Below are positions 14,214 through 58,718 of a stretch of 64,000 nucleotides of DNA, in pieces. How positions within the stretch are numbered: position 1 is the first letter of the stretch; each line of letters begins with the position of its first letter. Made by a program: the position numbers and the translations under genes. Under the pieces are notes generated by a model. That model searched no databases. It was not told the origin of the DNA and saw only the letters and a program-made list of their open reading frames with translations. The DNA is from a virus. The stretch is from the IMG/VR virus record IMGVR_UViG_3300045988_098886. One strand, written 5' to 3'.

Positions 14214-14214
14214 A

Positions 14215-22350: not shown

Positions 22351-22809
22351 TTAGTCTACGAAATATCCACGAGAGTCCAATTCTTTTGATAAAAAACTAA
22401 TAGCTTCTACACTGTATCGTTCGGTCAACTCCTCTATTTCATTGAGTAAATCATTAACCAAATCAGATACACCACAGAACCCTATATTTCCCACGAAATC
22501 GACAAGATTTTTAATAAGTTCGGGGTCATCTACCTCGAACTTCATTTCATCCTCGAAATCATCAGGAAGATAATCGTCGTCAGCATTATAGTATCTTTCT
22601 TGAACATATACTTCCACCAAGTCAAGAGTGGCATGGACTGTCTCTTCCTCAAGTCTAACAGTCAATCTAAATGCCTGAGAATCATCGTCCATTTTCTCAA
22701 CTATCATATAGAAAGAATCTTCCCATGTATAATCATAGTCAGATACAAGATAGTTGGCTTCTTTTAGAGCAACTAATAACTGCTCATATATTTCGTCAAT
22801 CGTTTTCAT
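22351..22809 (-). CDS. acidic hypothetical protein
   Basis: 152-aa ORF rich in D/E runs (NADDDYLPDDFEDEMKFEVDD); 14-nt overlap with the nadE end. Confidence 0.5.
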   Translation of the reverse strand: MKTIDEIYEQLLVALKEANYLVSDYDYTWEDSFYMIVEKMDDDSQAFRLTVRLEEETVHATLDLVEVYVQERYYNADDDYLPDDFEDEMKFEVDDPELIKNLVDFVGNIGFCGVSDLVNDLLNEIEELTERYSVEAISFLSKELDSRGYFVD

Positions 22810-23800
22810 ATTCTTTTCTGGGTATATAAATTGGAGCTTTCTTACGTTTAAATTCGGAAGCTAAATGTCGGCTCCAAACCTTATTGACTACATCTTCTCC
22901 ATGTTTAGCACATAACTGTGACCAGCAATCAGATTCTGCCATTTCATCATGTGGGTGCATGATTTGTCCAGCTGAATCATAGCTTTTTCTAAAGTCCTCG
23001 AATGGAATGAATCTACTAAGGATATCATCCACAGTAGCGTAGTCCTTAGCACCTATCTGGTCTAAGTCACTATTACTAATACCAAGACCATCAGTGGGAA
23101 CTAGCTTGCAAGAATTATATATAGCACATGACATTGCTTTATAATTATCGCAAGTTTCTTTATAATCATTACGAAGAGCTTCTAGAGCTTTACTTTTATA
23201 ATGGTCTTGCAAATAGTTTGCCAGTCCGTAAACTTCAGTCTTCCACAGGTCTTGAATAGGGTCAAAGTCACCAACATCACCATGAATAGTCCAGAATCCA
23301 AGCTGATATTCAGTTTGATTATCTGTACTCATTACTAATCCCTTGCGAATAGATGCTATATCATAAAGATGTATCATTCTACATCTAGCTTGGATATTGC
23401 CATTAGCAATAGGGGTTCTGCCAGCCAGTTCTTCTAAATCACTTAGCCAATACCAGTCGTAGCCTTTACAGTCTTTAATCAATCCTGCATCAGCACAAAG
23501 GTCAAATAAGGATGCCTTGTAAGAATCACTCAGATTGAATACTTTAAATTCATCACAGAAGGCTTCTCCGACAAGTTTAGATACGTCAAACTCATCTTCT
23601 TTATTCTTAATAGGAAGACTTCTACCTATAAGAGGAATGCCAGTCTTCTTACTAACTTCATGGCAGATAGCAGCAACAACAGTGGAGTCAATTCCTCCAC
23701 TGATGCCTAATACCATTGCTTTCAAACCATTAGAAGTAACATAATTTGCTGTTTCTTCTACTAAGGTATTAAATACCTTTTCATAATTTAATTCTTTCAT
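22796..23800 (-). CDS. nadE: NAD+ synthetase
   Basis: PP-loop GISGGIDSTVVAA close to the N-terminus; size and layout fit the NadE family. Confidence 0.8.
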   Translation of the reverse strand: MKELNYEKVFNTLVEETANYVTSNGLKAMVLGISGGIDSTVVAAICHEVSKKTGIPLIGRSLPIKNKEDEFDVSKLVGEAFCDEFKVFNLSDSYKASLFDLCADAGLIKDCKGYDWYWLSDLEELAGRTPIANGNIQARCRMIHLYDIASIRKGLVMSTDNQTEYQLGFWTIHGDVGDFDPIQDLWKTEVYGLANYLQDHYKSKALEALRNDYKETCDNYKAMSCAIYNSCKLVPTDGLGISNSDLDQIGAKDYATVDDILSRFIPFEDFRKSYDSAGQIMHPHDEMAESDCWSQLCAKHGEDVVNKVWSRHLASEFKRKKAPIYIPRKEYEND

Positions 23801-23958
23801 TGTTTTACTCGTTTAAGATAATAAACTATTACCCGACTGGAAACTCTGCCTCCTGATAAGAACTTAATTATAGTTGCGACTAATTCCCAACCGTCATCGC
23901 CCAGTCGATTAAGCTCTTCGCAGGTAATGTCTGTTTTTTCTAAATATTCAAATTTCAT
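23797..23958 (-). CDS. small DUF4177-like protein (tentative)
   Basis: The track start 23979 is TTG. ATG 23958 gives an ATGA overlap with the pncB stop. LNRLGDDGWELVA resembles the DUF4177 GWELV signature. Confidence 0.4.
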   Translation of the reverse strand: MKFEYLEKTDITCEELNRLGDDGWELVATIIKFLSGGRVSSRVIVYYLKRVKQ

Positions 23959-25115
23959 AGTCCAAGTTCTGCTAAACAAGAGTTAACTTCCATTGCACGT
24001 CCCGTATGTTTGCCTTCATCATCAGATAGCTTTACACAGTCATATACCGGCTGATTAGAGTTCATCTGACAAGATGTAAGTTTCATAACAATGTTAGAGG
24101 GTTTAAATCCAGTGTCATTGGTAAGGTTTGTACCTATACCGAACGATGCTCTAATTCTAGTCATACAATAGAGAGCAATATCTTCAGCCTTTTCAAAATC
24201 CAAAGCATTACTAAAGATAATGATTTTCGTAGTTGGGTCTATGCCCAATTCTTTATAGCGAGCAATCATTTTATTTACAAATTCATACTCGTCTCCAGAA
24301 TCACATCGTACTCCGTCAAACAACTTAGCTTGTTTACGTGAGAAGTTCTTGATGAATACATTCGATGTGTAAGTATCGGTAAGAGCTATTCCCAAGTCTC
24401 CGTCATAGACATTTACCCAATTCTCAAGAGCCATATAATTAGCTTGTTTGTAACCGTACATAGCGCCATGAAACATAAACCATTCATGTGGATGTGTTCC
24501 CATTGGTTTCATGTCATACTTCATCGCAAAGTAGCAGTTGGAAGTTCCGGTACAATAGATTGATTTCTCTTTAATATACTTAATAACTTCTTCTTGTATA
24601 TTGTAAGAGAATCTTCTACGAGTTCCAAATTCGGAGAAATAAATTCCTGATTGATTGGAACGTTTGATTTTACTTTCCAATTTATTAAGCATTACAGGAA
24701 TGTTGACCTTATAGCCTAACATCCTATTTCTTAATTCTGAAACCATTGCAAGAATAGGAACTTCATAAAGAGAAACTTTATAAAGATAATCCTTTGCTAT
24801 AATGTGAAGATGTTTTTCTTCATCCAAGAAGATTTGTACTTTACTTGGGTTAAATGTGAATTGAGATAACCATTCCCAGTAATGTCTTGGAATGAATCGA
24901 ATAGAGTTCATAAACTCAAATTCATCACTTGTAAGTCTTACCTGAGCAAGGTTATATAACTCAATACGAAGTTGCTCAACAAACTCTTCTGTGTATTCAG
25001 TATTATCACGGTCTTTAAACTCAAAAGTTCCTACCGCTTGTGGGAACAACTTCATGTAAGCATAAGAAGTTGTAAACTTGTATAAATCTGTATCTAAAAT
25101 TGATTTAATTATCAT
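23955..25115 (-). CDS. pncB: nicotinate phosphoribosyltransferase
   Basis: Colinear with E. coli PncB blocks: ILDTDLYKF, FGTRRRFS, GTSN, PMGTHPHEW, LGIALTD, DSGD, LGIDP..K..FS, SFGIGTNLT, KLSDDEGK. Confidence 0.85.
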   Translation of the reverse strand: MIIKSILDTDLYKFTTSYAYMKLFPQAVGTFEFKDRDNTEYTEEFVEQLRIELYNLAQVRLTSDEFEFMNSIRFIPRHYWEWLSQFTFNPSKVQIFLDEEKHLHIIAKDYLYKVSLYEVPILAMVSELRNRMLGYKVNIPVMLNKLESKIKRSNQSGIYFSEFGTRRRFSYNIQEEVIKYIKEKSIYCTGTSNCYFAMKYDMKPMGTHPHEWFMFHGAMYGYKQANYMALENWVNVYDGDLGIALTDTYTSNVFIKNFSRKQAKLFDGVRCDSGDEYEFVNKMIARYKELGIDPTTKIIIFSNALDFEKAEDIALYCMTRIRASFGIGTNLTNDTGFKPSNIVMKLTSCQMNSNQPVYDCVKLSDDEGKHTGRAMEVNSCLAELGL

Positions 25116-28155: not shown

Positions 28156-28332
28156 TTAATCATTATATGATATTATTTTGTAATATACGGTACTACCTAC
28201 CCAACGCCAACCCAGATAATTTACTGGAACCCATGCAGGTTTACTAAGCAAATCTCTAAATTCTAATGGCGTTAGATTACGTACTATATCTGTTTGTGGT
28301 GATGCTCCCTCAAGACTTATTAATACCTTCAT
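28156..28332 (-). CDS. small hypothetical protein (58 aa, below the ORF-track cutoff)
   Basis: Hand-translated ATG 28332 to TAA 28156: MKVLISLEGASPQTDIVRNLTPLEFRDLLSKPAWVPVNYLGWRWVGSTVYYKIISYND. It fills an otherwise empty 167-nt gap, overlaps the upstream gene by 23 nt and ends 13 nt before the next ATG. Confidence 0.5.
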   Translation of the reverse strand: MKVLISLEGASPQTDIVRNLTPLEFRDLLSKPAWVPVNYLGWRWVGSTVYYKIISYND

Positions 28333-29215
28333 GTTTTAACCAGTCTTGGAAGTACCACAATTGTCCACATCCTCCACCAATATCGTCCTGACCAGCAGGA
28401 TTAAATACTCTAGTGGAGAAACCTAGTTCACAGAGTCTCCTGTTAAAGTCTCTAATAAGACGAATTTGTCTATCAATAGAATTCTTTACAGTTTCATCCT
28501 TTTCACAAATTACAGAAAGAGTAGTTTCCCAAACATCGGTTCGAAAGAGTTTGTACAGTCTCCTTGCGTCTTCTTCTGTATCATTTCCTTCATGTACACA
28601 GTAATTGAAGAATGGTTTTCTTCCTGTGTTCGCTGCCCAAAATTCTCCCGCAGCAGCAATCTGGCGGAGAGTACAAGTCTTAGTCGGAATTAATTTTGCT
28701 CTAGCTTCATCAGTTGATTCATGTACTGAAAACTGCAATCCGACTTGAGGTATTCTTTTGGAGAGTTCAATAAACTCTGACATTGCATGATATAATGTAG
28801 ATGGAGCAGATGTGGACACTAATAGTTGAGCATTTGGATATAAGTCATGTAAAGACTCGATAGCTCGCTCCAAATTGATATAATTCAGAAATGGCTCTCC
28901 CATACTCATGAACATAATTTGGAATTTCTCAATGTCTTTAGTATTACAATCAATGGTACTTAGAACTGTAGTTACTTGTTCTATTATCTCATGCCAATCA
29001 AGATTCCTTACAAAGAACTTTCCTGTTCCACAGAACGTACAGCCAACCGGACATCCAGACTGTACAGAACAGCAAATTACTGTTCTCTTCGCGTATTCTC
29101 CATAACGATAAAGGACTGCTTCTGCAATTCCTTTTTTCGTTACTGCACTAGCTCCCCATTCAAATACAAACTTCTTGACATTAGTGTCAGAAGATTCAAA
29201 AATCTTATATTCCAT
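28310..29215 (-). CDS. RlmN/Cfr-family radical SAM RNA methyltransferase-like protein lacking the N-terminal accessory domain
   Basis: Colinear with E. coli RlmN: CCSVQSGCPVGCTFCGTG (CxxxCxxC plus the preceding Cys), NLDWHEIIEQV, FMSMGEPFLN, VSTSAP, LQFSVHESTDEARAKLIP and C-terminal GGGCGQL. Confidence 0.75.
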   Translation of the reverse strand: MEYKIFESSDTNVKKFVFEWGASAVTKKGIAEAVLYRYGEYAKRTVICCSVQSGCPVGCTFCGTGKFFVRNLDWHEIIEQVTTVLSTIDCNTKDIEKFQIMFMSMGEPFLNYINLERAIESLHDLYPNAQLLVSTSAPSTLYHAMSEFIELSKRIPQVGLQFSVHESTDEARAKLIPTKTCTLRQIAAAGEFWAANTGRKPFFNYCVHEGNDTEEDARRLYKLFRTDVWETTLSVICEKDETVKNSIDRQIRLIRDFNRRLCELGFSTRVFNPAGQDDIGGGCGQLWYFQDWLKHEGINKS

Positions 29216-44111: not shown

Positions 44112-44142
44112 TAAATAAAAAAGAGCAACCTTATGGCTGCTC
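44112..44142 (-). terminator. intrinsic terminator at the end of the nrdD-nrdG unit
   Basis: Minus-strand RNA GAGCAGCC-AUAA-GGUUGCUC (one G-U pair) followed by UUUUUUAUUUAU. The nrdG stop codon sits in the loop. Confidence 0.55.
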
Positions 44143-44637
44143 CTTCCAAAATAAACGTGTAATATCTTCTAATACATAAAGACCTGCTTCCTCATAGGTT
44201 TTATTAACCTTATACATTTTTTGATTGGTATTAGGATTATCAAGTGGTCCACATTCTTCAATGTAAGGACCAAGCTTGATATAATCAAAGTTTTTTAAAC
44301 AAATATCTTGGGGTATTTCTTTTCTACCACTATACCAAGCTATCTTTACATCGGCCCAACTTCCAGGAGTATCATTCATACTGCGCATTATATCAGCTAA
44401 CCAATTAATGTATGCTGGCTCTGAATCCCCTCCCATGAATGCTACACAGGTAATTCCTTTATTATCAAGCATTAGTTCTACTAGAGAATCTTCGTCAAGA
44501 GGTTTTCCAATATCCTCTGCCAAGTAAGAGCTATGACAGCCCTTACAATGACATGGGCAATTGGATATATTTATACAGAGAGTGATTTCATCTGGAATCT
44601 CCCTTAAAGTTACTGCTGTGTCTGTGTATTTTATCAT
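44131..44637 (-). CDS. nrdG: anaerobic ribonucleotide reductase activating protein (radical SAM)
   Basis: Cys cluster NCPCHCKGCHS near the N-terminus; small size; two genes downstream of nrdD. Confidence 0.8.
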   Translation of the reverse strand: MIKYTDTAVTLREIPDEITLCINISNCPCHCKGCHSSYLAEDIGKPLDEDSLVELMLDNKGITCVAFMGGDSEPAYINWLADIMRSMNDTPGSWADVKIAWYSGRKEIPQDICLKNFDYIKLGPYIEECGPLDNPNTNQKMYKVNKTYEEAGLYVLEDITRLFWKEQP

Positions 44638-44640
44638 ACT

Positions 44641-45000
44641 TTAATCAGATTCGTGTAATACAAATACAATTGGCTTGCCATCTACTTCACATACTGATAA
44701 CACCTCTTCATTAGGGTCACAATCATTCATTTCTTTCAGCCATGTATCTAATGTACAAATAACAAAGCCAGACCAGCCATCTGGACCACCTAAGAACCAA
44801 CCCTTTTCTCTAATGATAGAGAAATCTCCATCAAAATCCTGTAGATTATTTCTAACCTTGTCCAACCAATCGTCCATGGATTTATCTCCATAGACTGAAC
44901 AACAGTAATATTTAGATGTATCGAAATGAGCTAAGATAATTTTCTTAGCCAATTCTACGTCGCACACCCAACCATTCTCTATACCTGTCATATTATTCAT
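44641..45000 (-). CDS. hypothetical protein
   Basis: 119-aa ORF between nrdD and nrdG with an 8-nt overlap with the nrdD end. Confidence 0.5.
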   Translation of the reverse strand: MNNMTGIENGWVCDVELAKKIILAHFDTSKYYCCSVYGDKSMDDWLDKVRNNLQDFDGDFSIIREKGWFLGGPDGWSGFVICTLDTWLKEMNDCDPNEEVLSVCEVDGKPIVFVLHESD

Positions 45001-47206
45001 TTACTGTATACCCTAGTTTAGATTCATCTACTGTATATGTAAGATGATTATATACTCTATGTGTTTGCTCCTCTTGTCTACCTGCTGACCAATTTCTTAT
45101 TTTAGTAAGATAACCTATGATTCTATCGTAAAGGTCAATGTGAGTACTTCCACACATTGGACATTTAGAAACAGGAACCTTAGTTATAAATCCGCAGTCT
45201 TGACATTCAGAATTAGGAACATTGAATGTTAAATAGCTACATCCAACAGTTGCAGCATAGTTGAGTAACAGACTTGCCTGATTCTTGGTAGGATGTTCAG
45301 ATAGATTGATGTGTGCGGCACTTCCTCCGTCTAACCAATCTCCTACATATTCACTACCATGTAGCTTGATTTTCTCAAGAATAGAACTATTTGATTCTGG
45401 TAGGAATACATAAGAAGTGTATAGATTTCTGTCTTTAGGAACCCAATATCCATCAGCTTTATCCCAGTTGTAGTTCTTTACAGCTAAAGATTCAGCAGGA
45501 ACTAGTTCAGTATTAAACATGGTTTTCTTAGTATTGTGAAGTTGATTTTGTTCCTTGATAGTTCCAAATATAAAGTTACAGAATTCCTTATATTCTTTGT
45601 TGTCACTACATTTTATCCCTAAGAACATTGCAGCTTCATTTAATCCATTTAGACCAATAGTTAAATACTGGTTATTTAGATTAATGAATCCGGCTTCATA
45701 AACAGGAAGTAAGTGCGCGTTATATAAATCCCAAAGTAATTCATTATAAGCTGTATGGTATTTATAGACCCTTTCAAGAATATCCTTTAAATACTCTCCA
45801 AGTTCCGGATAGCATGAAGGACTTAATTGAGTTCCGGGTATCGGACAATCATCCTTGTATTCTCGGATATAATTCTGAATAATTCTATTCAGGTTAAGAG
45901 TAATTACAGATTTAGAACCAGTTTGTTCTCCAACTAACCCATTGGTAAATGTAAATTCATTGGATTGTAATTTATTCTTTAGTCTACAACAGCTTGATAA
46001 AGAATCTACACTGTCACTTATATAAGTAAAGAATGAATGTCCTTCCGCATATTCTTCTGATATAAAGTCAGCCCATTCTTGGTCTTCGAATTTCCCATCT
46101 TTATAAAGAAGAGATACAGTTTCAACTGGGAATGTGAGCATACAACGAAGTCTCTCTGCATTAAACCATTTCATGAATTTCTTTTGCAGCCAATTTAAAG
46201 AATCCCATTTTGGAGTATCTCCATCCGGGAATACGAAATGTCCGTACATTCCTTCAAAATAAGGTTTATCAAAATAACTTACATTCCAGAAAGCTGATTG
46301 GAAACCCCTTGCTGCTGCTGGCTGATTTACAGAATATACAATTTGTTGAAAGTACTGCTCTATTTGCTTACCGATAGTACCTTCATCAATTTTATTTCCA
46401 TTTTCGTCTTCATGCCATCTATGTTTAGCATTATCACCGTCAGCATATTTGAAATAATGGTCACCCCATTTCTTACGAGCAAAGTGGTCAAACATTACTA
46501 AGAAACTGGCTGTTGCAACAGCTCCTGCGAATTGAGAAGATACAGCAAATATCATATTTACAAACATTCCACAAAATGAATCAAGGTTCTTTGGAGATGC
46601 AGATAGACCACCAATTCCCTTAATTCCGCCTTGTAGAAATGGATAACAAGATAAAGCTACACAATATGGGAATCCAAATGTAGAGTTCTCATCATGCTTG
46701 TAAAGAATATGATTCTTCAAGTCTCTTTCATATTGTTTCGAATCGAAATCTGGATAAAGAACTTGTAATTTTTCCTTTACTCTGTACCTATTAAGGTCTA
46801 TATTATTGCTTTTATACAATTCATTGTTAAGTACAGCAATGTTCTTATTCGCAACGTTTGAATTATCGTCAACTTCAGAACCTTCTGCTGCATTAGAAGC
46901 TCTCATAAATTCCTTTATAAATTCTTCTCTTTCTCTCACATTCTCACGAACACGAGCTCTATTTTCTCTATATAATATATAGGCTTTAGCAACATCGGGG
47001 AAGTCAAAGTCCATAAGAATTTCTTCTATTTGGTCTTGAATATCCTCAATAGCTATTTCATCCCATATCTCAATAGAATCTAAAATATCATTAACAGTAT
47101 CTTCTTGTGGTGTGTATCCGCAAGCAGTAAATGCTTTTAGGATTGCAATTTTGATTTTAGAAGCATTAAAAGCTTCGCTTGTTCCGTCTCTTTTTACTAC
47201 GTTCAT
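44993..47206 (-). CDS. nrdD: anaerobic (class III) ribonucleoside-triphosphate reductase
   Basis: N-terminal ATP-cone VVKRDGTSEAFNASKI, C-terminal Zn site CQDCGF..CPMCGS, and a glycyl-radical segment RIIGYLTKIRNWSAGRQEE. Confidence 0.9.
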   Translation of the reverse strand: MNVVKRDGTSEAFNASKIKIAILKAFTACGYTPQEDTVNDILDSIEIWDEIAIEDIQDQIEEILMDFDFPDVAKAYILYRENRARVRENVREREEFIKEFMRASNAAEGSEVDDNSNVANKNIAVLNNELYKSNNIDLNRYRVKEKLQVLYPDFDSKQYERDLKNHILYKHDENSTFGFPYCVALSCYPFLQGGIKGIGGLSASPKNLDSFCGMFVNMIFAVSSQFAGAVATASFLVMFDHFARKKWGDHYFKYADGDNAKHRWHEDENGNKIDEGTIGKQIEQYFQQIVYSVNQPAAARGFQSAFWNVSYFDKPYFEGMYGHFVFPDGDTPKWDSLNWLQKKFMKWFNAERLRCMLTFPVETVSLLYKDGKFEDQEWADFISEEYAEGHSFFTYISDSVDSLSSCCRLKNKLQSNEFTFTNGLVGEQTGSKSVITLNLNRIIQNYIREYKDDCPIPGTQLSPSCYPELGEYLKDILERVYKYHTAYNELLWDLYNAHLLPVYEAGFINLNNQYLTIGLNGLNEAAMFLGIKCSDNKEYKEFCNFIFGTIKEQNQLHNTKKTMFNTELVPAESLAVKNYNWDKADGYWVPKDRNLYTSYVFLPESNSSILEKIKLHGSEYVGDWLDGGSAAHINLSEHPTKNQASLLLNYAATVGCSYLTFNVPNSECQDCGFITKVPVSKCPMCGSTHIDLYDRIIGYLTKIRNWSAGRQEEQTHRVYNHLTYTVDESKLGYTVNE

Positions 47207-48066: not shown

Positions 48067-49203
48067 TTATTTATCGTTATTGTTAAGCAGTTTTTCATTC
48101 AAAACTTCCCACACATCTTCATCATAACGAATCTCTATCAATTTTATGTCATTGTCTTTGCAATATTGTCTAACATACTCGTCGCGAGCCTGCTGTTGTT
48201 CAAATTTAAAAGTTCCTCCAAAAGCCATCTCAGGCTCATAATGTTGAATACCATTATATTCAATGAAAGTGTTATGCTCTGGTAAATAAAAATCAATATA
48301 AGCTCTGCCAGAGGTATTAATCTCGTTTGGTATTTGAATAGTATACTCTCTTACAAATTTAATTTTTTCATTTAACAATACATTGCATATTTCTCCTTCT
48401 CCTTTAGAACTAGAACAACTAGGACATCCTTCACCTTGTATATGGGAAGCAGGAGTTTGCCAAAATTCACCATGTTCGGGACATAAAATGCAAATTTTTG
48501 TATGGCTACCTGCATAGTTCACCTTTGAATAATCATATCGTTCTCCGTGAACATATTTGGCGTCTTTTAGAAAGTCATCTAGGGACTTTCTTGTATACTC
48601 ACTATGCTTTTCAGCCGAACACTTGGGACATCCCACATACTTATGAAATTGTCCAGGAAGAACTTCAAAATCACCGTGCTTAGGACATGTTATAGTTACT
48701 TTAGTGTCCCACCCAGTATACACAGTTTTACTATAATCTAATTCTGGGTGGAATTTTTTAAACTCTTGTATATAAGTATCAGTAAACTTTCTAAGCCTTT
48801 CTTCTTCTTTACATTTTAAGCAGCCAACTCCTTTAGATAAGGTGCTAACAAGTGCATTGAATTCTCCATGATTCGGACAAATCAGGGTAACAGAACCTCT
48901 ATTTCCAGTATATCTTACTTTGGAGTAATCATATTTGTCTCCAAATGTATTATATAAACGATTGATAAATTCTTCATTCGATAATCTAAGTTTAGTACTT
49001 TTAGCTAAAGAAGCACACTTATGGCAGCCATCACCTCTCCTAACATGCATTTGAGCTATAACTTCAAAGTCTCCATGCTCTGGACAGGTGACAGTTATTT
49101 TGTTTTGACTGCCAGTATATATAGATTTAGAATAATCATATTTATCCCCATGCTTTTCTTTAGCTCTAGCTATCCATTCTTCGGTGGTGAGCTTTTTGGG
49201 CAT
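48067..49203 (-). CDS. free-standing homing-endonuclease-like protein: four tandem zinc-ribbon repeats plus a C-terminal Vsr/PD-(D/E)xK-like nuclease module
   Basis: Four copies of (K/R)YDYSK..Y.G....I.(I/L)CP.HG(D/E)F..........GC..C. C-terminal RAYIDFYLPEHNTFIEYNGIQH ... IKLIEIRY. Confidence 0.55.
   Translation of the reverse strand: MPKKLTTEEWIARAKEKHGDKYDYSKSIYTGSQNKITVTCPEHGDFEVIAQMHVRRGDGCHKCASLAKSTKLRLSNEEFINRLYNTFGDKYDYSKVRYTGNRGSVTLICPNHGEFNALVSTLSKGVGCLKCKEEERLRKFTDTYIQEFKKFHPELDYSKTVYTGWDTKVTITCPKHGDFEVLPGQFHKYVGCPKCSAEKHSEYTRKSLDDFLKDAKYVHGERYDYSKVNYAGSHTKICILCPEHGEFWQTPASHIQGEGCPSCSSSKGEGEICNVLLNEKIKFVREYTIQIPNEINTSGRAYIDFYLPEHNTFIEYNGIQHYEPEMAFGGTFKFEQQQARDEYVRQYCKDNDIKLIEIRYDEDVWEVLNEKLLNNNDK
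48412..49182 (-). repeat. four in-frame tandem repeats (about 65-69 codons each) encoding the zinc-ribbon modules
   Basis: The first Cys of each CP.HG motif falls at aa 40, 109, 173 and 241 of the 378-aa protein. Confidence 0.7.
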
Positions 49204-54045: not shown

Positions 54046-54258
54046 TTATAAAGCGTCTATATCAATGACATCGCCTACTTGAGCATTAGCTGCTTCAACG
54101 ATATCAACAAACTCATTCCAATCTCCAGGATAATCTAAATCCCAGAGATTTACATAAGTTTCAATGATTTTATCCTTAGCTTCCTGAAGACTTCTGGCTG
54201 TAACTTTTTCAATCCAGACGCTATCAGATGTGCCAAAAGGAACTACGTATGTGTTCAT
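54046..54258 (-). CDS. hypothetical protein
   Basis: 70-aa ORF with a 4-nt overlap with the ARH end. Confidence 0.5.
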   Translation of the reverse strand: MNTYVVPFGTSDSVWIEKVTARSLQEAKDKIIETYVNLWDLDYPGDWNEFVDIVEAANAQVGDVIDIDAL

Positions 54259-55058
54259 TCACAAACATCATCAAAGGTTTCAATAATATCAATCATCTCC
54301 TCTGGAAGAACATCCCATACTTGGTCAAAGATAGTTTGTGGCATTTTTTCGTAATAAGCATAAGCAATACTTCCAGCCATAGCTGCAATAGTATCACTAT
54401 CTCCGCCCATAGAAATAGCCAGTTTCAAACAATCTTCATAGTCTTCAGATTCCAGAAATGCAAGCAAAGCAATTGGAACGCTGCCTTGACAAGTAGAGTC
54501 AAAATGGTATCCCGGGCGAATTTCATCAAGAGTTTTTTCGGTATACTCAGGATAATAGTTATCCAAAACGTACCAAATTTGATTCTTAGTAATAGAATCA
54601 TGCTTGGCTCGATAAATAGCTAGTGCGATAGCTTGAGCGCCCTTTACTCCCTCTGGGTCATTATGAGAACACAGGGCAGAATTCTTGGCAAGTTCAAGAC
54701 ATTCTTTTGCGTTATGCGCATAGAATCCAACAGGACTAACACGCATAGCAGAACCATTTCCATAACTTCCATAAGGAACAGGATTATCTATCCATTTACG
54801 GAACATTCCTCCATATCCTCTATTGGGATGTTTCTTACACATTTCCTGAATACATTCTCCAAATTGCTCCGGAGTAGGATTCTTGTATTTCAAAATAGCA
54901 TTTGCTACTCCAATAGTACAAACTGTATCATCAGTAAAATCATTACCTGTTCTTACTAAACGAACAGCTTCATACAGTTTTGTTCTTCCAAATTTTGCTT
55001 CATAGGAGGAACCGCAGACATCTCCTGCGATTGCTCCAAATAGTACATAGTCCATCAT
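54255..55058 (-). CDS. ADP-ribosylglycohydrolase (ARH/DraG family)
   Basis: N-terminal GAIAGDVCGSSYE and C-terminal MGGDSDTIAAMAGSIAYAYY blocks, typical of the family. Confidence 0.8.
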   Translation of the reverse strand: MMDYVLFGAIAGDVCGSSYEAKFGRTKLYEAVRLVRTGNDFTDDTVCTIGVANAILKYKNPTPEQFGECIQEMCKKHPNRGYGGMFRKWIDNPVPYGSYGNGSAMRVSPVGFYAHNAKECLELAKNSALCSHNDPEGVKGAQAIALAIYRAKHDSITKNQIWYVLDNYYPEYTEKTLDEIRPGYHFDSTCQGSVPIALLAFLESEDYEDCLKLAISMGGDSDTIAAMAGSIAYAYYEKMPQTIFDQVWDVLPEEMIDIIETFDDVCE

Positions 55059-55360
55059 TGATAATTGGCTGAGTTTTTAATAGTTATTTCTTTGTTGTAG
55101 AAATTGAATCCTTCGGGAGTCCCAAAATCTGTTAATGAAAAACAGTTGTCTATTGCTCCTTCAAAAATTTCGTCATCCGCGTCTTTGTTAAACACTTTAA
55201 CAATTATTCCTTTAAAACTCTTAAGTGATGGCTCTATTGCGAGAACAACGTAATCGTAACCATGACAGGCATACCTAAGAAGGCATGGATAAGGAAGTGT
55301 TTCAGACGTTATAGTAGATGTAATTTTTACGCCCTCTATTTTAGGAGTTGATTTAATCAT
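55055..55360 (-). CDS. hypothetical protein
   Basis: 101-aa ORF with 4-nt overlaps to both ARH and the radical SAM gene. Confidence 0.5.
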   Translation of the reverse strand: MIKSTPKIEGVKITSTITSETLPYPCLLRYACHGYDYVVLAIEPSLKSFKGIIVKVFNKDADDEIFEGAIDNCFSLTDFGTPEGFNFYNKEITIKNSANYQ

Positions 55361-56277
55361 AATTCAATTGTTTTAATTGGATTTAAGTTAAATGAACTTG
55401 GGGTTATTTGAACTTTATCCTTTGTAAGAATTACATTCTTACTTAAAGATTCAGGCGGATAAAGATAAGTAGGAATCCTTGAGTTTTCCAAATACTTACA
55501 AAAGTGTGCTCCAAATGCAACATTAGTTACATTCTCCTCAAGAATTTTCTCTTCGAGATATTCAAACACTCCTTCGTCAAGTCCTTTTGAACTTCTACCA
55601 GAAGGCATTAACGGCAATAGAACATGATACTTAATATCACTACCATAGCGTTTCCACTCTTTAATAAAATCATCAACAGAGTCTTTGGCAGAAATAATGT
55701 GATGGATATTCACATTGGTATCACCCATTGTAATTAAGTTGACAATAGCCATATCAGCATTCCTTTTTAATGCTTTATTGCCAAGACTTACTGCCACTCC
55801 ACCAACAAAGTTCCGAGTATACTCAAGCAATTCTCTACTAGTTTTAATATTGGACAGTGTAATACCGTTAGTAGTGTAATTAGGAACCACTCCAGTATTA
55901 TACACAGTTTCCAAGAACTTACAAAAGTCTGGATGAATGGTAGGTTCACCAGTAGAACCGATAGCAATTTGGAATGGCTTGCTGGTAAATACTGTTCCAT
56001 CTTTTACTTCAGATTGGTACATGTACATCCATTTCTTCCATGTTTCACAAATGTCGGGATAATTTATTCCTTTGTGTGAAGCACTTACATAACAAAAGGG
56101 ACACTCTGCATTACACAGTGTATTAATTCCAACATCATAAAATTCAGCCATATCAGCAGGAAGTTCTTTAGCAACTCCACTACCAAGTCTGATTGTTTTA
56201 AGATTGAACCACAGTGCATTGTAATTATATGCGGGGAACATTCTCTTCTTGGCACCCCAATGTTTAAAATCTTTCAT
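55357..56277 (-). CDS. radical SAM enzyme of unassigned subfamily
   Basis: CNAECPFCY (CxxxCxxC), GSTGEPT (GGE-like SAM motif), TTNG. No C-terminal Cys-rich SPASM-like region is visible. Confidence 0.75.
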   Translation of the reverse strand: MKDFKHWGAKKRMFPAYNYNALWFNLKTIRLGSGVAKELPADMAEFYDVGINTLCNAECPFCYVSASHKGINYPDICETWKKWMYMYQSEVKDGTVFTSKPFQIAIGSTGEPTIHPDFCKFLETVYNTGVVPNYTTNGITLSNIKTSRELLEYTRNFVGGVAVSLGNKALKRNADMAIVNLITMGDTNVNIHHIISAKDSVDDFIKEWKRYGSDIKYHVLLPLMPSGRSSKGLDEGVFEYLEEKILEENVTNVAFGAHFCKYLENSRIPTYLYPPESLSKNVILTKDKVQITPSSFNLNPIKTIEL

Positions 56278-56288
56278 CTTATTCTTTA

Positions 56289-56813
56289 TTAATTTCGTTC
56301 GTTTTCGGGAAGTTTATTCCATTCTGAATATCCAACAAGTTCAACAATTCTCTTAGTCTCTGGGTCTATTCTGCAATAGCCAGTACAACCTATGACATTG
56401 AGATTGTTGATTATCCATTGAATTGTGCCTCTTCTGGCATCATCAATATCAATCCAGAGACGCTTTTCCAGTTCTTCAATAGACTCTTTAAACATAAGAG
56501 AGTATATTTCTTTGGTAAAGAACTCTCTTTTATTCTCTGGAATTTCATCGAACTTGTAACGATTGTATGAATCATCGAATGTCAGTATTTCCAATTCTCC
56601 ACCCATTCCAGAAGAAGAATCATACTTATTCATTTCCTCATCAGAGAGTTTTTCCCATTCCTTCCAAGAACCTTTAAAATAGTTCTTGTCAGCAATTTCA
56701 ATAATAAGCTGCTTGAGCTCACTGATAGGCATTTCTGCCTTAACAGTGAACACTTCAGAGCTTGAATTTGTAATGATGTCTGATACAGACTGCAAATCTA
56801 TTCCTATTCTCAT
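56289..56813 (-). CDS. paralog 1 of the QSxSDxITNSSSExF N-terminal-tag family
   Basis: MRIGIDLQSVSDIITNSSSEVF; the motif is encoded at 56748-56792; the C-terminal region is divergent. Confidence 0.65.
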   Translation of the reverse strand: MRIGIDLQSVSDIITNSSSEVFTVKAEMPISELKQLIIEIADKNYFKGSWKEWEKLSDEEMNKYDSSSGMGGELEILTFDDSYNRYKFDEIPENKREFFTKEIYSLMFKESIEELEKRLWIDIDDARRGTIQWIINNLNVIGCTGYCRIDPETKRIVELVGYSEWNKLPENERN

Positions 56814-57124
56814 ACTATTATTGTATAGTTGTCTTCTCCAAATTTCTCCTTTAGAATCGCTCTAATTCCAGCTTCGTAGAATGTTTCAAAGTCCTCAATT
56901 CCATAAGGAACTTCAAGAGATATAGAATATTCACCGTCTTCGGTATATTCCCACACTCCAGGAGACATTTCGTAATCATTTCCAGGAAATAGTTCTTGCA
57001 TGACTTTATATATCTCATTATGAGTCTTTTCGTCTTTAGAATCTATCCTAAGAAATACTTCCGAGCTCGAATTAGTGATAATATCAGAGAGTGATTGAAC
57101 TTTAAATGTTATTTTAAGCTTCAT
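56810..57124 (-). CDS. paralog 2 of the N-terminal-tag family
   Basis: MKLKITFKVQSLSDIITNSSSEVF; the motif is encoded at 57053-57097. Confidence 0.65.
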   Translation of the reverse strand: MKLKITFKVQSLSDIITNSSSEVFLRIDSKDEKTHNEIYKVMQELFPGNDYEMSPGVWEYTEDGEYSISLEVPYGIEDFETFYEAGIRAILKEKFGEDNYTIIV

Positions 57125-57130
57125 AATTTT

Positions 57131-57517
57131 TTAATGTCTTGATGTCCAGCAAATTGAGTCATCTATCGCATCTTCGAGAACTTCACAACAATCTTCGAAA
57201 TGGTCTTCAATTTCTACAAAGTAAATGTCGTCAAATTCATCGATACGAGGCATTATGTACGAATCCACAAATTCATTCCAGTCTTCAGAGCTAAAACAAT
57301 CGTCGTCTGGTTCTTCGATATTGAGGAAGTCACATATTAATTCCCTTTCCCAATAATTGTTACGAATCCATTCTTCACCAACTGCATCAATACTAATACA
57401 CCCGTCTGATGGTAGATTATCATAACGTTCTGCATCTCTCTGATGCATTAGGAATGTTTCAGAAGAGGAGTTCGTGATAATATCGGAGATACTTTGTATT
57501 TTTGTTAAAATTTTCAT
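57131..57517 (-). CDS. paralog 3 of the N-terminal-tag family
   Basis: MKILTKIQSISDIITNSSSETF; the motif is encoded at 57452-57496; the C-terminal region is very acidic. Confidence 0.65.
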   Translation of the reverse strand: MKILTKIQSISDIITNSSSETFLMHQRDAERYDNLPSDGCISIDAVGEEWIRNNYWERELICDFLNIEEPDDDCFSSEDWNEFVDSYIMPRIDEFDDIYFVEIEDHFEDCCEVLEDAIDDSICWTSRH

Positions 57518-57684
57518 ACTTTAATCTTTTTAAATCTACCACATTTTTTACATAAAAAAGTAATTTCTACCCAAGTGGGGCGTTTATCAGTCTCACTCCA
57601 GTATACTTCACTCTCTTTTATTTGTTCCCATTCATGGCAGCATAGGAATTTCTTTTTAAACGCTTCTACTAAGTCTCTAAACAT
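57514..57684 (-). CDS. small zinc-ribbon protein
   Basis: The track start 57705 is GTG; ATG 57684 follows the upstream stop. CCHEW ... CKKCG. Confidence 0.45.
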   Translation of the reverse strand: MFRDLVEAFKKKFLCCHEWEQIKESEVYWSETDKRPTWVEITFLCKKCGRFKKIKV

Positions 57685-57685
57685 A

Positions 57686-58225
57686 TCAATAACGATAATC
57701 AGCACTGTATAGAGTATCTAATGAGTTCAGAGCTTTGGCAGCCATTTCAGCGTCCTCATTGTCTAATCCATCCTTAACTCTGATATTCAGTTCTTCAAGA
57801 GCTGGCATACAGTCATACTCATCGTTATTTTCCTGCACACAGTATTCTTCGTATGTCAGTGCCCCATTTTCAATTGCAACTCTCTTTACTTCATCGAAAA
57901 TATATTCAAGTGCTTTAGACTTATTTTCACTCCAGTCACCCGTATTCCAGCCATCGGAGTAAATTTTTTCAAGAGATTTAGCATAATCATTATCTCCATC
58001 CTTGATATAATTTCTGATGTAGTCATAGTATGCATCCTCCCATCTGTCATCGAACTTAGTGTCGAATACAAATAGGTCAGAGAACATAAGAGTACTTCCT
58101 ACTGATGCAAGTAAAGAATCCACAATATTTCTGATAATACATTCTGCATCATCGTTCAATACTGTAAATGTTTCAGTGGAGCTGTTAGTAATCAAATCTG
58201 TAATAGATTGAATTTTGATTTTCAT
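57686..58225 (-). CDS. paralog 4 of the N-terminal-tag family
   Basis: MKIKIQSITDLITNSSTETF; the motif is encoded at 58166-58210. Confidence 0.65.
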   Translation of the reverse strand: MKIKIQSITDLITNSSTETFTVLNDDAECIIRNIVDSLLASVGSTLMFSDLFVFDTKFDDRWEDAYYDYIRNYIKDGDNDYAKSLEKIYSDGWNTGDWSENKSKALEYIFDEVKRVAIENGALTYEEYCVQENNDEYDCMPALEELNIRVKDGLDNEDAEMAAKALNSLDTLYSADYRY

Positions 58226-58226
58226 T

Positions 58227-58559
58227 TTATCCTAAATGATAACGGTTAATATTTGAATAATCTAGACTTTCTATAAACTCCATTACCCATCCCGGTATGC
58301 TGTTATCTGTTACTGACTCGATGACTAAGTCTCCTCTTTTTATTTTAATGTGTCTGTAAAAATCATAGGTCATATCATTTGATGCTACCCAAGTTTTGTA
58401 CAATTCGCTCGGAACTAATCCGGCAGCGGTTACTACTTCATCAATCAGTTCTTCTATTTCCTGATTTTTACTTTTTTGATTGTGAACTACAAACAACTCA
58501 CTCGAGCTATTTGTTATCACATCTGATATTGACTGCGTCCTCAAGATTACTATCATCAT
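58227..58559 (-). CDS. paralog 5 of the N-terminal-tag family
   Basis: MMIVILRTQSISDVITNSSSELF; the motif is encoded at 58491-58535. Confidence 0.65.
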   Translation of the reverse strand: MMIVILRTQSISDVITNSSSELFVVHNQKSKNQEIEELIDEVVTAAGLVPSELYKTWVASNDMTYDFYRHIKIKRGDLVIESVTDNSIPGWVMEFIESLDYSNINRYHLG

Positions 58560-58686: not shown

Positions 58687-58718
58687 AATAAAAAAGGCGA
58701 CTATTGTTTAGTCGCCTT
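58687..58718 (-). terminator. intrinsic terminator overlapping the 3' end of the resolvase-like gene
   Basis: Minus strand AAGGCGACUA-AACAA-UAGUCGCCUU followed by UUUUUAUU. The stop codon TAG lies in the descending arm of the stem. Confidence 0.6.

What the first reader, a model, noticed from the sequence alone, without database searches (positions are those of the whole stretch)
55357..58559. Five tandem paralogs sharing an invariant N-terminal tag QS(I/L/V)(S/T)D(I/L/V)ITNSS(S/T)E-x-F with unrelated C-terminal domains, adjacent to a radical SAM enzyme
Seen in sequence:
- Five consecutive genes (56289-56813, 56810-57124, 57131-57517, 57686-58225, 58227-58559) begin with a short basic/hydrophobic strand followed by nearly the same 15 residues: QSVSDIITNSSSEVF, QSLSDIITNSSSEVF, QSISDIITNSSSETF, QSITDLITNSSTETF and QSISDVITNSSSELF. 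These are encoded at 56748-56792, 57053-57097, 57452-57496, 58166-58210 and 58491-58535.
- After the tag the proteins differ in length (104-179 aa) and show no similarity obvious by eye. Most are acidic.
- The tag is encoded with different synonymous codons in each copy. The Ser triplets, for example, are tca-agc-tct, tcg-agc-tcg, tcc-tct-tct, agc-tcc-act and agc-tcg-agt. This points to old duplications with strong selection on the peptide rather than a recent DNA repeat.
- The array is interrupted only by a 56-aa zinc-ribbon ORF. It is directly followed, in the same transcriptional direction, by a radical SAM enzyme (CNAECPFCY), a 101-aa ORF and an ADP-ribosylglycohydrolase.

Inference, three non-exclusive models:
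1. The tag is a recognition or leader element for modification of the Ser-rich segment by the neighbouring radical SAM enzyme, following RiPP-like logic applied to whole proteins.
2. The tag is a targeting sequence, analogous to the shared capsid-targeting peptide of the T4 internal proteins, that delivers variable cargo.
3. The tag is a common docking strand carrying a diversified set of effector or decoy domains.

I do not recognise this motif as belonging to a characterised family.
Basis: partly seen in the sequence, partly recalled or inferred. Interest (0 to 1): 0.85.

Follow-up and report, generated by a model that had tools for sequence, protein, structure and literature searches.

The report
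Radical-SAM-linked tagged phage protein arrays
Large crAss-like gut phages carry rows of otherwise unrelated small acidic proteins that all start with the same 15-residue motif and always sit just upstream of one dedicated radical-SAM enzyme, which points to an undescribed system for marking or modifying whole proteins.

Summary
Five minus-strand genes (56289-58559) start with a short strand followed by QSx[ST]DxITNSS[ST]ExF, encoded with different synonymous codons. Once the tag is removed, their C-terminal parts show no detectable homology to each other.

- **Spread of the tag:** It defines at least 1153 clusters (at 50% identity) of 80-330-aa proteins. The motif is almost always within the first ~45 residues. 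No member matches Pfam, NCBIfam, PHROGs or PADLOC, and I found no paper that mentions the motif.
- **Linkage to the enzyme:** In all 72 distinct rSAM loci, 1-7 tag genes lie directly upstream on the same strand. Every tag locus with enough flanking sequence has the rSAM. This also holds in jumbo-phage contigs with different neighbouring genes, and where the rSAM has diverged to 31-35% identity.
- **Neighbours that are not part of the module:** The ADP-ribosylglycohydrolase, the 101-aa ORF and the zinc-ribbon ORF are not conserved alongside it.
- **The enzyme:** It is an orphan single-cluster rSAM. Its modelled fold is closest to the RiPP maturases SuiB, SkfB and EpeE.
- **The tag in the model:** It is the only low-confidence stretch in an otherwise confident AlphaFold model.

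Best reading: the tag is the element through which each protein engages the rSAM, most likely as a substrate. No chemistry has been shown. Natural variants that have lost the rSAM exist.

The parts
58227..58559 (-). Tagged protein, 110 aa, first gene of the array. It belongs to the 'HLG-ending' class, whose C-terminus reads ...DNSIPGW...RYHLG.
   Evidence: ORF; tag at 58491-58535. 100 of 134 distinct arrays have exactly one HLG-ending member, usually the first gene.
57686..58225 (-). Tagged protein, 179 aa, of the '...F(S/D)DLF...' family.
   Evidence: The same C-terminal type sits next to an rSAM of only 31-33% identity in L184 and L187.
57514..57705 (-). Small Cys-pair (zinc-ribbon-like) ORF inserted in the array. 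It is not conserved with the module.
   Evidence: tblastn finds it only in close relatives.
57131..57517 (-). Tagged protein, 128 aa.
   Evidence: tag at 57452-57496.
56810..57124 (-). Tagged protein, 104 aa, of the '...LFPGxDxExxP...' family.
   Evidence: tag at 57053-57097.
56289..56813 (-). Tagged protein, 174 aa, of the 'YDxxSGMGG / IPENKK / DIDxxRxxTIxW' family.
   Evidence: The AlphaFold model has pLDDT 84 and pTM 0.77, with only residues 9-26 (the tag) below 50. No fold match in PDB or BFVD.
55357..56277 (-). Orphan radical-SAM enzyme, 306 aa. Features: CNAECPFCY cluster motif, a GSTGEP motif, a conserved 45-aa N-terminal beta extension, and no auxiliary-cluster cysteines.
   Evidence: It is always directly downstream of tag arrays.
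58694..58718 (-). Terminator-like hairpin (10-bp stem followed by a T run) between the RusA-like gene and the array. It is the likely upstream limit of the array-rSAM transcription unit.
   Evidence: The genes from 58559 down to 54255 overlap or are at most 11 nt apart.
54255..55360 (-). 101-aa ORF and ADP-ribosylglycohydrolase. They are co-oriented neighbours but not part of the conserved module.
   Evidence: PF03747 hit. Present only in a subset of related loci.

Best explanation
The array and the rSAM form one two-part module.

**The tag.** The N-terminal cassette is an amphipathic strand followed by QSx[ST]DhITNSS[ST]EhF. It is portable and sits on many unrelated small acidic domains. Through it, each of these proteins engages the phage's own rSAM enzyme.

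**Most likely mechanism (inferred).**
1. The N-terminal strand docks by strand addition onto the enzyme's extra N- and C-terminal beta elements.
2. This places the invariant TNSS loop in the open side of the partial TIM barrel.
3. The 5'-deoxyadenosyl radical abstracts a hydrogen from a tag residue, producing a post-translational change. The chemistry is unknown. Candidates are epimerisation, a C-C or C-O cross-link, or oxidation or cleavage at Ser or Asn.

One enzyme would therefore mature a changing set of 1-7 proteins per phage. This is RiPP logic (conserved recognition part, variable payload) applied to folded proteins.

**Likely role (inferred).** The payloads are probably accessory host-takeover or counter-defence proteins, because array content turns over quickly between close relatives.

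**Shown:** the motif, its spread, its fixed N-terminal position, the near-obligate adjacency to the rSAM, and the enzyme's fold class.

**Inferred:** physical binding, modification, and the biological role.
For: 1. **Linkage.**
   - All 72 distinct rSAM loci with at least 3 kb of upstream sequence have 1-7 tag genes on the same strand. The last tag motif lies a median of 305 nt before the rSAM start.
   - Tag-first searches give no counterexample with adequate flank, in IMG/VR, in metagenome contigs (65 with rSAM, 13 too short, 0 without), or in contigs from MAG bins.
2. **Linkage outlives synteny and divergence.**
   - Contigs of 237-400 kb lack the primase and RusA neighbours but keep tags plus rSAM.
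   - L180, L184 and L187 have an rSAM of only 31-35% identity, yet the tags still read HSx[SV]D[LVI]ITNSS[ST].
3. **The tag behaves like a recognised linear element.**
   - Conservation across 378 non-redundant tags: Q 91%, S 97%, D 98%, I/V 100%, S/T 96%, E 96%, F/Y 99%. T-N-S-S is fixed by the regex used to collect these tags, so its invariance in that set is not an independent result.
   - The Asp lies at residue 10-14 in most of these proteins.
   - The tag is the only segment with pLDDT below 50 in a confident model.
   - Synonymous sites are scrambled between copies.
4. **Concerted change.** Where position -4 is not Q, nearly all copies in that genome changed together, across different payload families (HHH, KKKKK, KK, ILL). 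rSAM residue A36 is Ala in all 88 Q-type enzymes and in none of the 18 others. This second point is confounded by phylogeny.
5. **Enzyme class.** CxxxCxxC is invariant. The best structural matches of the model are peptide-modifying rSAMs: SuiB (E 7.5e-7), SkfB, EpeE, PqqE and CteB. The N-terminal 45 residues are strongly conserved and modelled as a three-stranded sheet.
6. **Not the enzyme for another pathway here.** The window has its own NrdG next to NrdD and a separate RlmN/Cfr-like rSAM, so this one is not the activase for the anaerobic reductase.
Against: - No modification or binding has been observed.
- Natural variants have lost the rSAM by an in-frame microhomology deletion yet keep other tagged genes (P0154, 4 contigs up to 96 kb). 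Either the enzyme is dispensable for those proteins, or the whole module is accessory.
- The enzyme lacks both a recognisable RRE domain and the SPASM/twitch auxiliary clusters that its closest structural neighbours use.
- Its sequence matches to known rSAM families cover only the core and fall far below their cut-offs.
- The AlphaFold model places residues 2-6 as a strand of the payload domain. The cassette may therefore be an anchored loop rather than a free leader.
- All carriers are phage contigs, and most belong to related lineages, so some of the co-occurrence is inherited.
Confidence: 0.5

Rival explanations
1. Adaptor model. The tag is a docking peptide that binds the rSAM but is not itself modified. 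The variable C-terminal domains would recruit different targets (host proteins, nucleic acids or small molecules) to a single radical enzyme.
For: This uses the same linkage, invariance and concerted-change evidence as the main model. The payload families are individually old and conserved, as expected for binding modules. The enzyme lacks the auxiliary clusters typical of peptide cross-linking rSAMs.
Against: No precedent I know of (own knowledge) has an rSAM that uses interchangeable adaptor subunits. The strictly conserved polar TNSS[ST]E loop looks more like a reaction site than a docking strand. The rSAM-deletion variants keep tagged genes.
Confidence: 0.15
2. Ligand model. The rSAM makes a small molecule, for example a modified nucleotide as viperin does. 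The tag would be a binding loop for that product, or for a metal, so that the tagged proteins sense or use it.
For: The tag is rich in D, T, N, S and E, as ligand- and metal-binding loops are. Viperin is among the fold and profile matches. A ligand-dependent loop would also be modelled with low confidence.
Against: A ~15-residue element at a fixed N-terminal position on unrelated folds is unlikely to form a binding pocket on its own. Genome-wide concerted changes at tag positions -4 and 0 are not expected if the ligand stays the same. The best fold matches are peptide maturases rather than viperin.
Confidence: 0.1
3. Other-partner model. The tag targets the proteins somewhere else: into the capsid (like the T4 internal-protein targeting sequence), to a host hub protein, or to a protease. 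The rSAM would merely be a conserved neighbour.
For: The position is N-terminal, as for the T4 capsid-targeting sequence (own knowledge). Cargo is variable and acidic. rSAM-less variants retain tagged genes. crAss-like phages are known to package cargo proteins (own knowledge).
Against: The array lies in the replication and nucleotide-metabolism block, not among structural genes. Adjacency to the rSAM survives changes of gene context and divergence to 31% identity, while every other neighbour is lost. There is no L/I-x-E type cleavage motif. The concerted tag changes argue for a partner encoded by the phage itself.
Confidence: 0.12
4. Common-fold model. All tagged proteins are highly diverged homologues of one small domain, and the tag is its conserved active-site or core element, not a portable module.
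For: After the tag, most families continue with a hydrophobic strand and then a helix. Several families share a second motif at the far C-terminus...DNSIP...HLG.
Against: Profile-profile probabilities between the five tag-less families are at most 5.7%. Lengths range from 81 to 332 aa. The tag is the disordered part of the model, not its core. Natural chimeras swap payloads behind the same tag (P0237, P0169). No known domain is detected in 15 families tested.
Confidence: 0.08

Closest known systems
RiPP precursor families with a shared leader and an rSAM maturase (streptide SuiA/SuiB, SkfA/SkfB, EpeX/EpeE, SCIFF, and multi-precursor NHLP/Nif11 arrays)
   Same: Several tandem genes share a conserved N-terminal part and differ downstream, and they lie directly upstream of a single rSAM. 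The modelled enzyme fold is closest to SuiB, SkfB and EpeE.
   Different: - The payloads are folded, individually conserved domains of 80-330 aa, not short hypervariable core peptides.
- The conserved part is only ~15 residues and is itself the likely reaction site.
- No RRE, no SPASM/twitch clusters, and no protease or exporter are present.
- The system is encoded by lytic-type crAss-like and jumbo phages, in the replication block.
Anaerobic sulfatase-maturating enzyme (anSME/AtsB) acting on sulfatases
   Same: An rSAM acts on full-length proteins that are recognised through a short conserved Ser/Cys-containing motif near the N-terminus, and one enzyme serves many substrate paralogues (own knowledge).
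   Different: The C/S-x-P/A-x-R sulfatase motif is absent from the tag. anSME carries two auxiliary clusters in a SPASM domain, while this enzyme has none. The substrates here are not homologous to each other.
Glycyl-radical enzyme activases (PflA, NrdG)
   Same: These are small single-cluster rSAMs that act on a loop of a folded protein. PflA appears among the fold matches.
   Different: The tag has no conserved Gly and no RVxG-type motif. A genuine NrdG/NrdD pair is encoded elsewhere in the window.
T4 internal proteins with a shared capsid-targeting sequence
   Same: A short shared N-terminal sequence sits on otherwise unrelated small phage proteins (own knowledge).
   Different: There is no link to head genes or to a prohead protease, and no L/I-x-E cleavage motif. 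Here the constant partner is an rSAM.

Membership tests
Radical SAM superfamily (306-aa protein, 55357-56277) | CxxxCxxC motif that binds the [4Fe-4S] cluster | tested here: met
   C55, C59 and C62 are invariant in 19 homologues down to 53% identity. They are also present in homologues of 31-35% identity.
Radical SAM superfamily (306-aa protein, 55357-56277) | Match to the family profile (PF04055) at or above its gathering score | tested here: inconclusive
   The window protein scores 24.9 bits against a cut-off of 29.5, E 2.5e-5. Many close homologues do carry a precomputed PF04055 hit.
Radical SAM superfamily (306-aa protein, 55357-56277) | Partial (beta/alpha)6 TIM-barrel fold | tested here: met
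   The AlphaFold model has pLDDT 82 and pTM 0.83. Foldseek gives probability 1.0 to SuiB, SkfB, EpeE, viperin, NifB, PqqE and PflA.
SPASM/twitch rSAM peptide maturases | C-terminal Cys-rich domain that binds one or two auxiliary Fe-S clusters | tested here: not met
   The only invariant cysteines are C55, C59, C62 and C77, and none lies in the C-terminal 200 residues. NCBIfam hits to SPASM families cover only the core, at 15-30 bits against cut-offs of 170-650.
RiPP system | RiPP recognition element (PqqD-like domain) on the maturase or on a partner protein | tested here: not met
   Pfam gives no RRE/PqqD match for the N-terminal extension even at E<=10. The model shows only a three-stranded sheet at residues 9-30. 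A structural relationship was not tested.
RiPP system | Short precursor made of a leader plus a core peptide that is released as the product | tested here: not met
   Tagged proteins have a median length of 134 aa (range 81-332) and carry conserved, confidently folded payload domains. No protease or exporter is conserved nearby.
anSME-sulfatase pair | C/S-x-P/A-x-R motif in the substrate | tested here: not met
   The tag consensus is QSx[ST]DhITNSS[ST]EhF, with no Pro or Arg at the required spacing.
Glycyl-radical enzyme and activase | Conserved Gly in an RVxG-type loop of the substrate | tested here: not met
   No conserved Gly occurs in the tag. A separate NrdG (TIGR02826, E 1.3e-40) sits next to NrdD.
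T4-type capsid-targeting sequence | Proteins packaged in the head, with the tag removed by the prohead protease | not testable with these tools
   This needs virion proteomics. The gene context (replication block) does not favour it.
Any curated protein family, for the five tagged proteins | Significant match to Pfam, NCBIfam, PHROGs or PADLOC | tested here: not met
   No hit passes a curated cut-off or reaches E<1e-3 for any of the five (NCBIfam tried for two of them). The same holds for ten further tag families in Pfam. The precomputed Pfam column is '-' for all listed hits except the P0154 chimera.

The most novel reading that the evidence does not exclude
A phage-encoded radical-SAM system installs a so far undescribed post-translational modification in a 15-residue N-terminal cassette. 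That cassette has been grafted onto dozens of unrelated folded effector domains. This would be RiPP-style 'leader plus one maturase' logic operating on whole proteins, used by crAss-like and jumbo phages to arm a rapidly changing set of host-takeover or counter-defence proteins.
Probability: 0.4. Interest if true: 0.88.

Novelty: new variant of a known kind. Interest (0 to 1): 0.74.

Why it matters
If the tag is indeed a handle for the rSAM, four things follow.

1. **New enzymology.** It would define a new family of protein-modifying radical enzymes and possibly a new modification chemistry. The substrate motif is already known, so the enzymology can be tested directly.
2. **Annotation.** It would give a first functional foothold for more than a thousand clusters of 'hypothetical' proteins in abundant human-gut crAss-like phages.
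3. **RiPP logic on folded proteins.** It would show that the recognition logic of RiPP pathways can be applied to folded proteins.
4. **A portable tag.** A short peptide recognised by a single enzyme could be useful for protein engineering.

Even if the tag turns out to be only a docking element, the module is a clean marker for a variable accessory locus in these phages.

Tried and rejected
- **Known families.** Pfam, PHROGs, NCBIfam and PADLOC scans of the five proteins and of ten further tag families found nothing.
- **Literature.** Searching for the motif strings found only unrelated papers. Searches on phage rSAM, RiPP and crAss found no description of this system.
- **Fold of the 174-aa protein.** Foldseek against PDB and BFVD gave no meaningful match.
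- **First homologue search.** The search with the 40-aa tag profile returned only proteins under 80 aa, apparently because of a length filter. It was informative only about spread.
- **Cultured phages.**
  - The only GenBank hit to the rSAM is in Vibrio phage D479, at 28% identity.
  - An ORF upstream of it begins MKIRNGFVSNSSSSSFVI, but it scores -2 bits against the tag HMM.
  - The T4-like (RB43/KP15 group) homologues of the D479 enzyme have no tag-like ORF within 7 kb. I rejected this as a membership extension.
- **NrdD activase.** I considered that the rSAM could be the NrdD activase. This is rejected, because a true NrdG is present.
- **ARH as a partner (Ser-ADP-ribosylation idea).** Rejected as part of the core, because the ARH is absent from most related loci.
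- **Insertion in the rSAM gene.** An Rfam scan of the insertion that splits the rSAM in L046 found no intron family.
- **RRE.** A Pfam scan of the rSAM N-terminal extension at E<=10 found nothing.
- **Clustering.** Single-linkage clustering of C-termini merged families through chimeras and was replaced by family-wise hhalign.
- **Tag-rSAM covariation.** The analysis gave one perfectly partitioning column (A36) and some enrichment in the N-terminal extension. It is confounded by phylogeny, so I treat it as weak evidence.

Full report
**1. The observation**

The five minus-strand ORFs are at the stated coordinates: 56289-56813 (174 aa), 56810-57124 (104 aa), 57131-57517 (128 aa), 57686-58225 (179 aa) and 58227-58559 (110 aa). 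All begin with a short alternating hydrophobic/basic stretch followed by QSx[ST]DxITNSS[ST]ExF. Outside the tag, the alignment has almost no conserved columns.

They use different synonymous codons: identical codons at only 1-5 of 10-14 identical residues, and 53-71% nucleotide identity. A six-frame scan finds the motif nowhere else in the 64-kb window.

The genes from 58559 down to 54255 overlap or are at most 11 nt apart. A strong terminator-like hairpin (58694-58718, minus strand) precedes the array. The array, the rSAM, the 101-aa ORF and the ADP-ribosylglycohydrolase therefore look like one transcription unit.

**2. The tagged proteins**

None of the five matches Pfam, PHROGs, NCBIfam or PADLOC at a meaningful level.

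A profile of the first ~40 residues was searched against 1.84 billion cluster representatives.
- It finds 1153 proteins at E<=1e-3.
- Nearly all are 80-190 aa long.
- In almost all of the 150 listed, the match lies within residues ~1-45.

Over 378 non-redundant tags, the conservation is:

| Position | Residue | Frequency |
|---|---|---|
| -4 | Q | 91% |
| -3 | S | 97% |
| -1 | S/T | 90% |
| 0 | D | 98% |
| +2 | I/V | 100% |
| +3 to +6 | T-N-S-S | 100% (partly imposed by the regex used to collect the tags) |
| +7 | S/T | 96% |
| +8 | E | 96% |
| +10 | F/Y | 99% |

The Asp sits at residue 10-14 in most of these proteins. Of the proteins, 91% have pI below 5, with a median of 4.4.

With the tag removed, the five window proteins belong to five non-overlapping families (108, 54, 49, 43 and 16 members in my sample). 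Profile-profile comparison gives at most 5.7% probability of homology between any two. Each family is well conserved in itself. The 174-aa family, for example, has invariant motifs YDxxSGMGG, IPENKK and DIDxxRxxTIxW. Ten further tag families also lack any Pfam domain. 'Paralogs' is therefore only half right: this is a portable N-terminal module on unrelated payloads.

Natural chimeras show the modularity directly.
- P0237 joins the N-terminal part of a 179-type protein to the C-terminus of the 174-type.
- P0169 joins the 174-type to the C-terminus of the 104-type.

An AlphaFold model of the 174-aa protein is confident overall (pLDDT 84, pTM 0.77). Residues 9-26, which are the tag, are the only stretch below pLDDT 50. 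Residues 2-6 are modelled as a strand of the domain. The model has no meaningful match in PDB or BFVD.

**3. The rSAM enzyme**

Evidence on the 306-aa protein (55357-56277):
- It has an invariant CxxxCxxC (C55, C59, C62), a GSTGEP motif, a strongly conserved 45-residue N-terminal extension, and conserved C-terminal motifs (LLPLMPSGRS, AFGAHF, ITPSSF).
- It has no further conserved cysteines that could hold an auxiliary cluster.
- Sequence matches to known families cover only the core and fall far below their cut-offs. These include the tungsten-cofactor maturase, viperin, the lipid synthase Tes, and the mycofactocin maturase.
- Its AlphaFold model (pLDDT 82, pTM 0.83) adds a three-stranded sheet at residues 9-30 and strands at 279-305 to the barrel.
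- The best fold matches are the RiPP maturases SuiB (E 7.5e-7, TM 0.58), SkfB and EpeE. AbmM, viperin, NifB, PqqE, CteB and PflA also match.
- The window encodes two other rSAM proteins with clear assignments: NrdG (TIGR02826, E 1.3e-40) next to NrdD, and an RlmN/Cfr-like enzyme. This one is therefore an orphan.
- The family has at least 835 members at E<=1e-3, all on phage-like contigs and named only generically.

**4. Linkage of tags and enzyme**

- *Starting from the enzyme:* all 72 distinct rSAM loci in IMG/VR with at least 3 kb of upstream sequence have 1-7 tag genes on the same strand. The last tag motif lies a median of 305 nt before the rSAM start.
- *Starting from the tag:* every IMG/VR locus with enough downstream sequence has the rSAM. 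In metagenome contigs, 65 of 78 tag loci have it, 13 are too short to tell, and none is a counterexample.
- *Different gene contexts:* most carriers share a primase, RusA-like gene, array, rSAM order, but the pairing also occurs elsewhere.
  - Contigs of 237-400 kb have unrelated neighbours. In L171 a metallophosphatase and a 71-aa ORF lie between the tags (KSISGLITNSSTECF) and the rSAM.
  - Contigs binned with assorted MAGs carry an rSAM of only 31-35% identity, yet the tags still read HSx[SV]D[LVI]ITNSS[ST]. Some of the same payload families (the 179-type and the 110-type) are present there too.
- *Neighbours that come and go:* the ADP-ribosylglycohydrolase, the 101-aa ORF and the zinc-ribbon ORF are not conserved with the module.
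- *Turnover:* array content differs even between close relatives with 83-95% rSAM identity.

**5. Signs of a shared, phage-encoded partner**

Where tag position -4 is not Q, nearly all copies in that genome have changed together, although they sit on different payload families (HHH, KKKKK, KK, ILL). Q almost never mixes with these states. Because synonymous sites are scrambled, recent gene conversion is an unlikely cause.

rSAM residue A36, in the N-terminal extension, is Ala in all 88 enzymes paired with Q-type tags and in none of the 18 paired with other types. Five of the ten best-separating columns lie in residues 1-45. This is suggestive, but it is confounded by phylogeny.

**6. Evidence against an obligatory enzyme-substrate relation**

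Four contigs (up to 96 kb, from at least two samples) carry an in-frame microhomology deletion. It fuses the 104-aa protein to the C-terminal part of the ADP-ribosylglycohydrolase, and it removes the 174-aa protein, the rSAM and the 101-aa ORF. Two other tagged genes remain. The module, or at least the enzyme, is therefore dispensable for persistence of the genome.

The enzyme also lacks a recognisable RRE and auxiliary clusters.

**7. Interpretation**

The simplest account of four facts together is that the tag is the element by which each protein engages the rSAM. The four facts are:
1. A nearly invariant, N-terminally fixed, structurally unassigned 15-residue motif on unrelated payloads.
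2. Its essentially complete adjacency to one orphan rSAM, across contexts and deep divergence.
3. Concerted lineage-specific changes in the tag.
4. An enzyme fold nearest to peptide maturases.

I rate 'the tag is a substrate, and the TNSS loop is modified' as most likely, at about 0.5 including uncertainty about the link itself. The rivals are:
- a docking-only adaptor (0.15);
- a ligand- or metal-binding loop for an rSAM product (0.1);
- targeting to another partner, such as the capsid or a host hub (0.12);
- a hidden common fold (0.08).

The chemistry is unknown.

**8. Comparison with what is known**

The arrangement works like multi-precursor RiPP clusters with a shared leader and one rSAM maturase. 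It also works like anSME, which acts on many sulfatases through a short Ser/Cys motif. It fails the membership tests for each related family:
- RiPP systems: no short core peptide, no RRE, no SPASM domain.
- anSME: no C/SxPxR motif.
- Glycyl-radical systems: no conserved Gly.

I found no description in the curated libraries or in the searchable literature.

No cultured phage in the GenBank phage collection carries the module. The nearest lead, Vibrio phage D479, does not hold up.

The carrier is a crAss-like phage from the human gut. Its DNA polymerase is 41-60% identical to those of cr111_1, IAS virus and PhiCrAssBcn, and close relatives are human-gut contigs of 175-187 kb.

**9. Verdict**

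This is a real, widespread and unannotated two-part module. I class it as a new variant of a known kind (rSAM maturase with tagged clients). It is of high interest because the candidate substrate motif and the enzyme are both in hand, so the hypothesis can be tested directly.

Noticed in passing
window 58227-58559; related loci L011, L027, L053, L147, L184, L187 and others: A second shared module lies at the far C-terminus of a subset of tagged proteins: ...hhS(x)(D/E)(D/E)N(S/P)(I/D)(P/W)...xHLG-COOH. It occurs in 72 of 509 tagged proteins, which range from 95 to 332 aa. Of 134 distinct arrays, 100 have exactly one such member, usually as the first gene. The window's 110-aa protein is one of them. 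It may be a semi-core component of the module.
   Followed up: partly
L046 10318-12458; also L026, L053, L054, L066, L068, L073: In several lineages the rSAM gene is split at exactly residue 107/108, inside the GSTGEP motif, by insertions of about 0.3 to 2 kb. This looks like intron or homing-element insertion at a conserved catalytic site. Rfam finds no intron family in the L046 insert.
   Followed up: partly
P0154 (locus L174 8001-8738), P0389, P0237, P0169: In-frame chimeras arise by deletion at tiny microhomologies. The 104-aa protein is fused to the ADP-ribosylglycohydrolase at 'PYG', which deletes the rSAM. A 179-type tag is fused directly to the rSAM at 'NAEC'. Payload swaps between tag families also occur.
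   Followed up: partly
window 22796-25115 and 54255-55058: The phage encodes NAD synthase (NadE) and nicotinate phosphoribosyltransferase side by side, plus a DraG/Tri1-like ADP-ribosylglycohydrolase. This is a possible NAD-replenishing, anti-ADP-ribosylation counter-defence set.
   Followed up: partly
window 28310-29215, 44131-44637, 44993-47206: Two further rSAM genes are present: an RlmN/Cfr-like RNA methyltransferase homologue (E 5e-31, but far below the family cut-offs), and NrdG next to an NrdD-like anaerobic ribonucleotide reductase.
   Followed up: yes
window 965-18840 (+ strand): Three consecutive giant ORFs of 3290, 1127 and 1547 aa have no Pfam hits, and the two tested in PHROGs have none there either. 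By size and position they may be the virion RNA polymerase and ejection-protein block of crAss-like or N4-like phages. I did not test this.
   Followed up: no
window 55357-56277, residues 288-296 of the rSAM: The enzyme's own conserved C-terminal strand, 'VQITPSSF', resembles the tag's 'DIITNSSSEVF'. This could be chance, or it could be a pseudo-substrate or strand-exchange element.
   Followed up: no
L146 about 6640-6745; proteins P0057, P0087, P0014, P0012: Tag-only mini-ORFs of 34-48 aa (the tag plus about 12 residues) recur on several ~150-kb contigs. They could be decayed genes or genuine short products. Some loci, such as L054, have many truncated tag ORFs, which might indicate stop-codon recoding.
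   Followed up: no
L176 4110-4508 (Vibrio phage D479, VPHD479_0110): An ORF beginning MKIRNGFVSNSSSSSFVI lies 1.3 kb upstream of a distant rSAM (28% identity) that has a Cys-rich C-terminus. It does not score with the tag HMM. The enzyme's T4-like homologues (RB43/KP15 group) have no such ORF nearby.
   Followed up: yes
window 48067-49203: A DUF723/HNH-type homing-endonuclease-like gene is embedded in the replication block.
   Followed up: no
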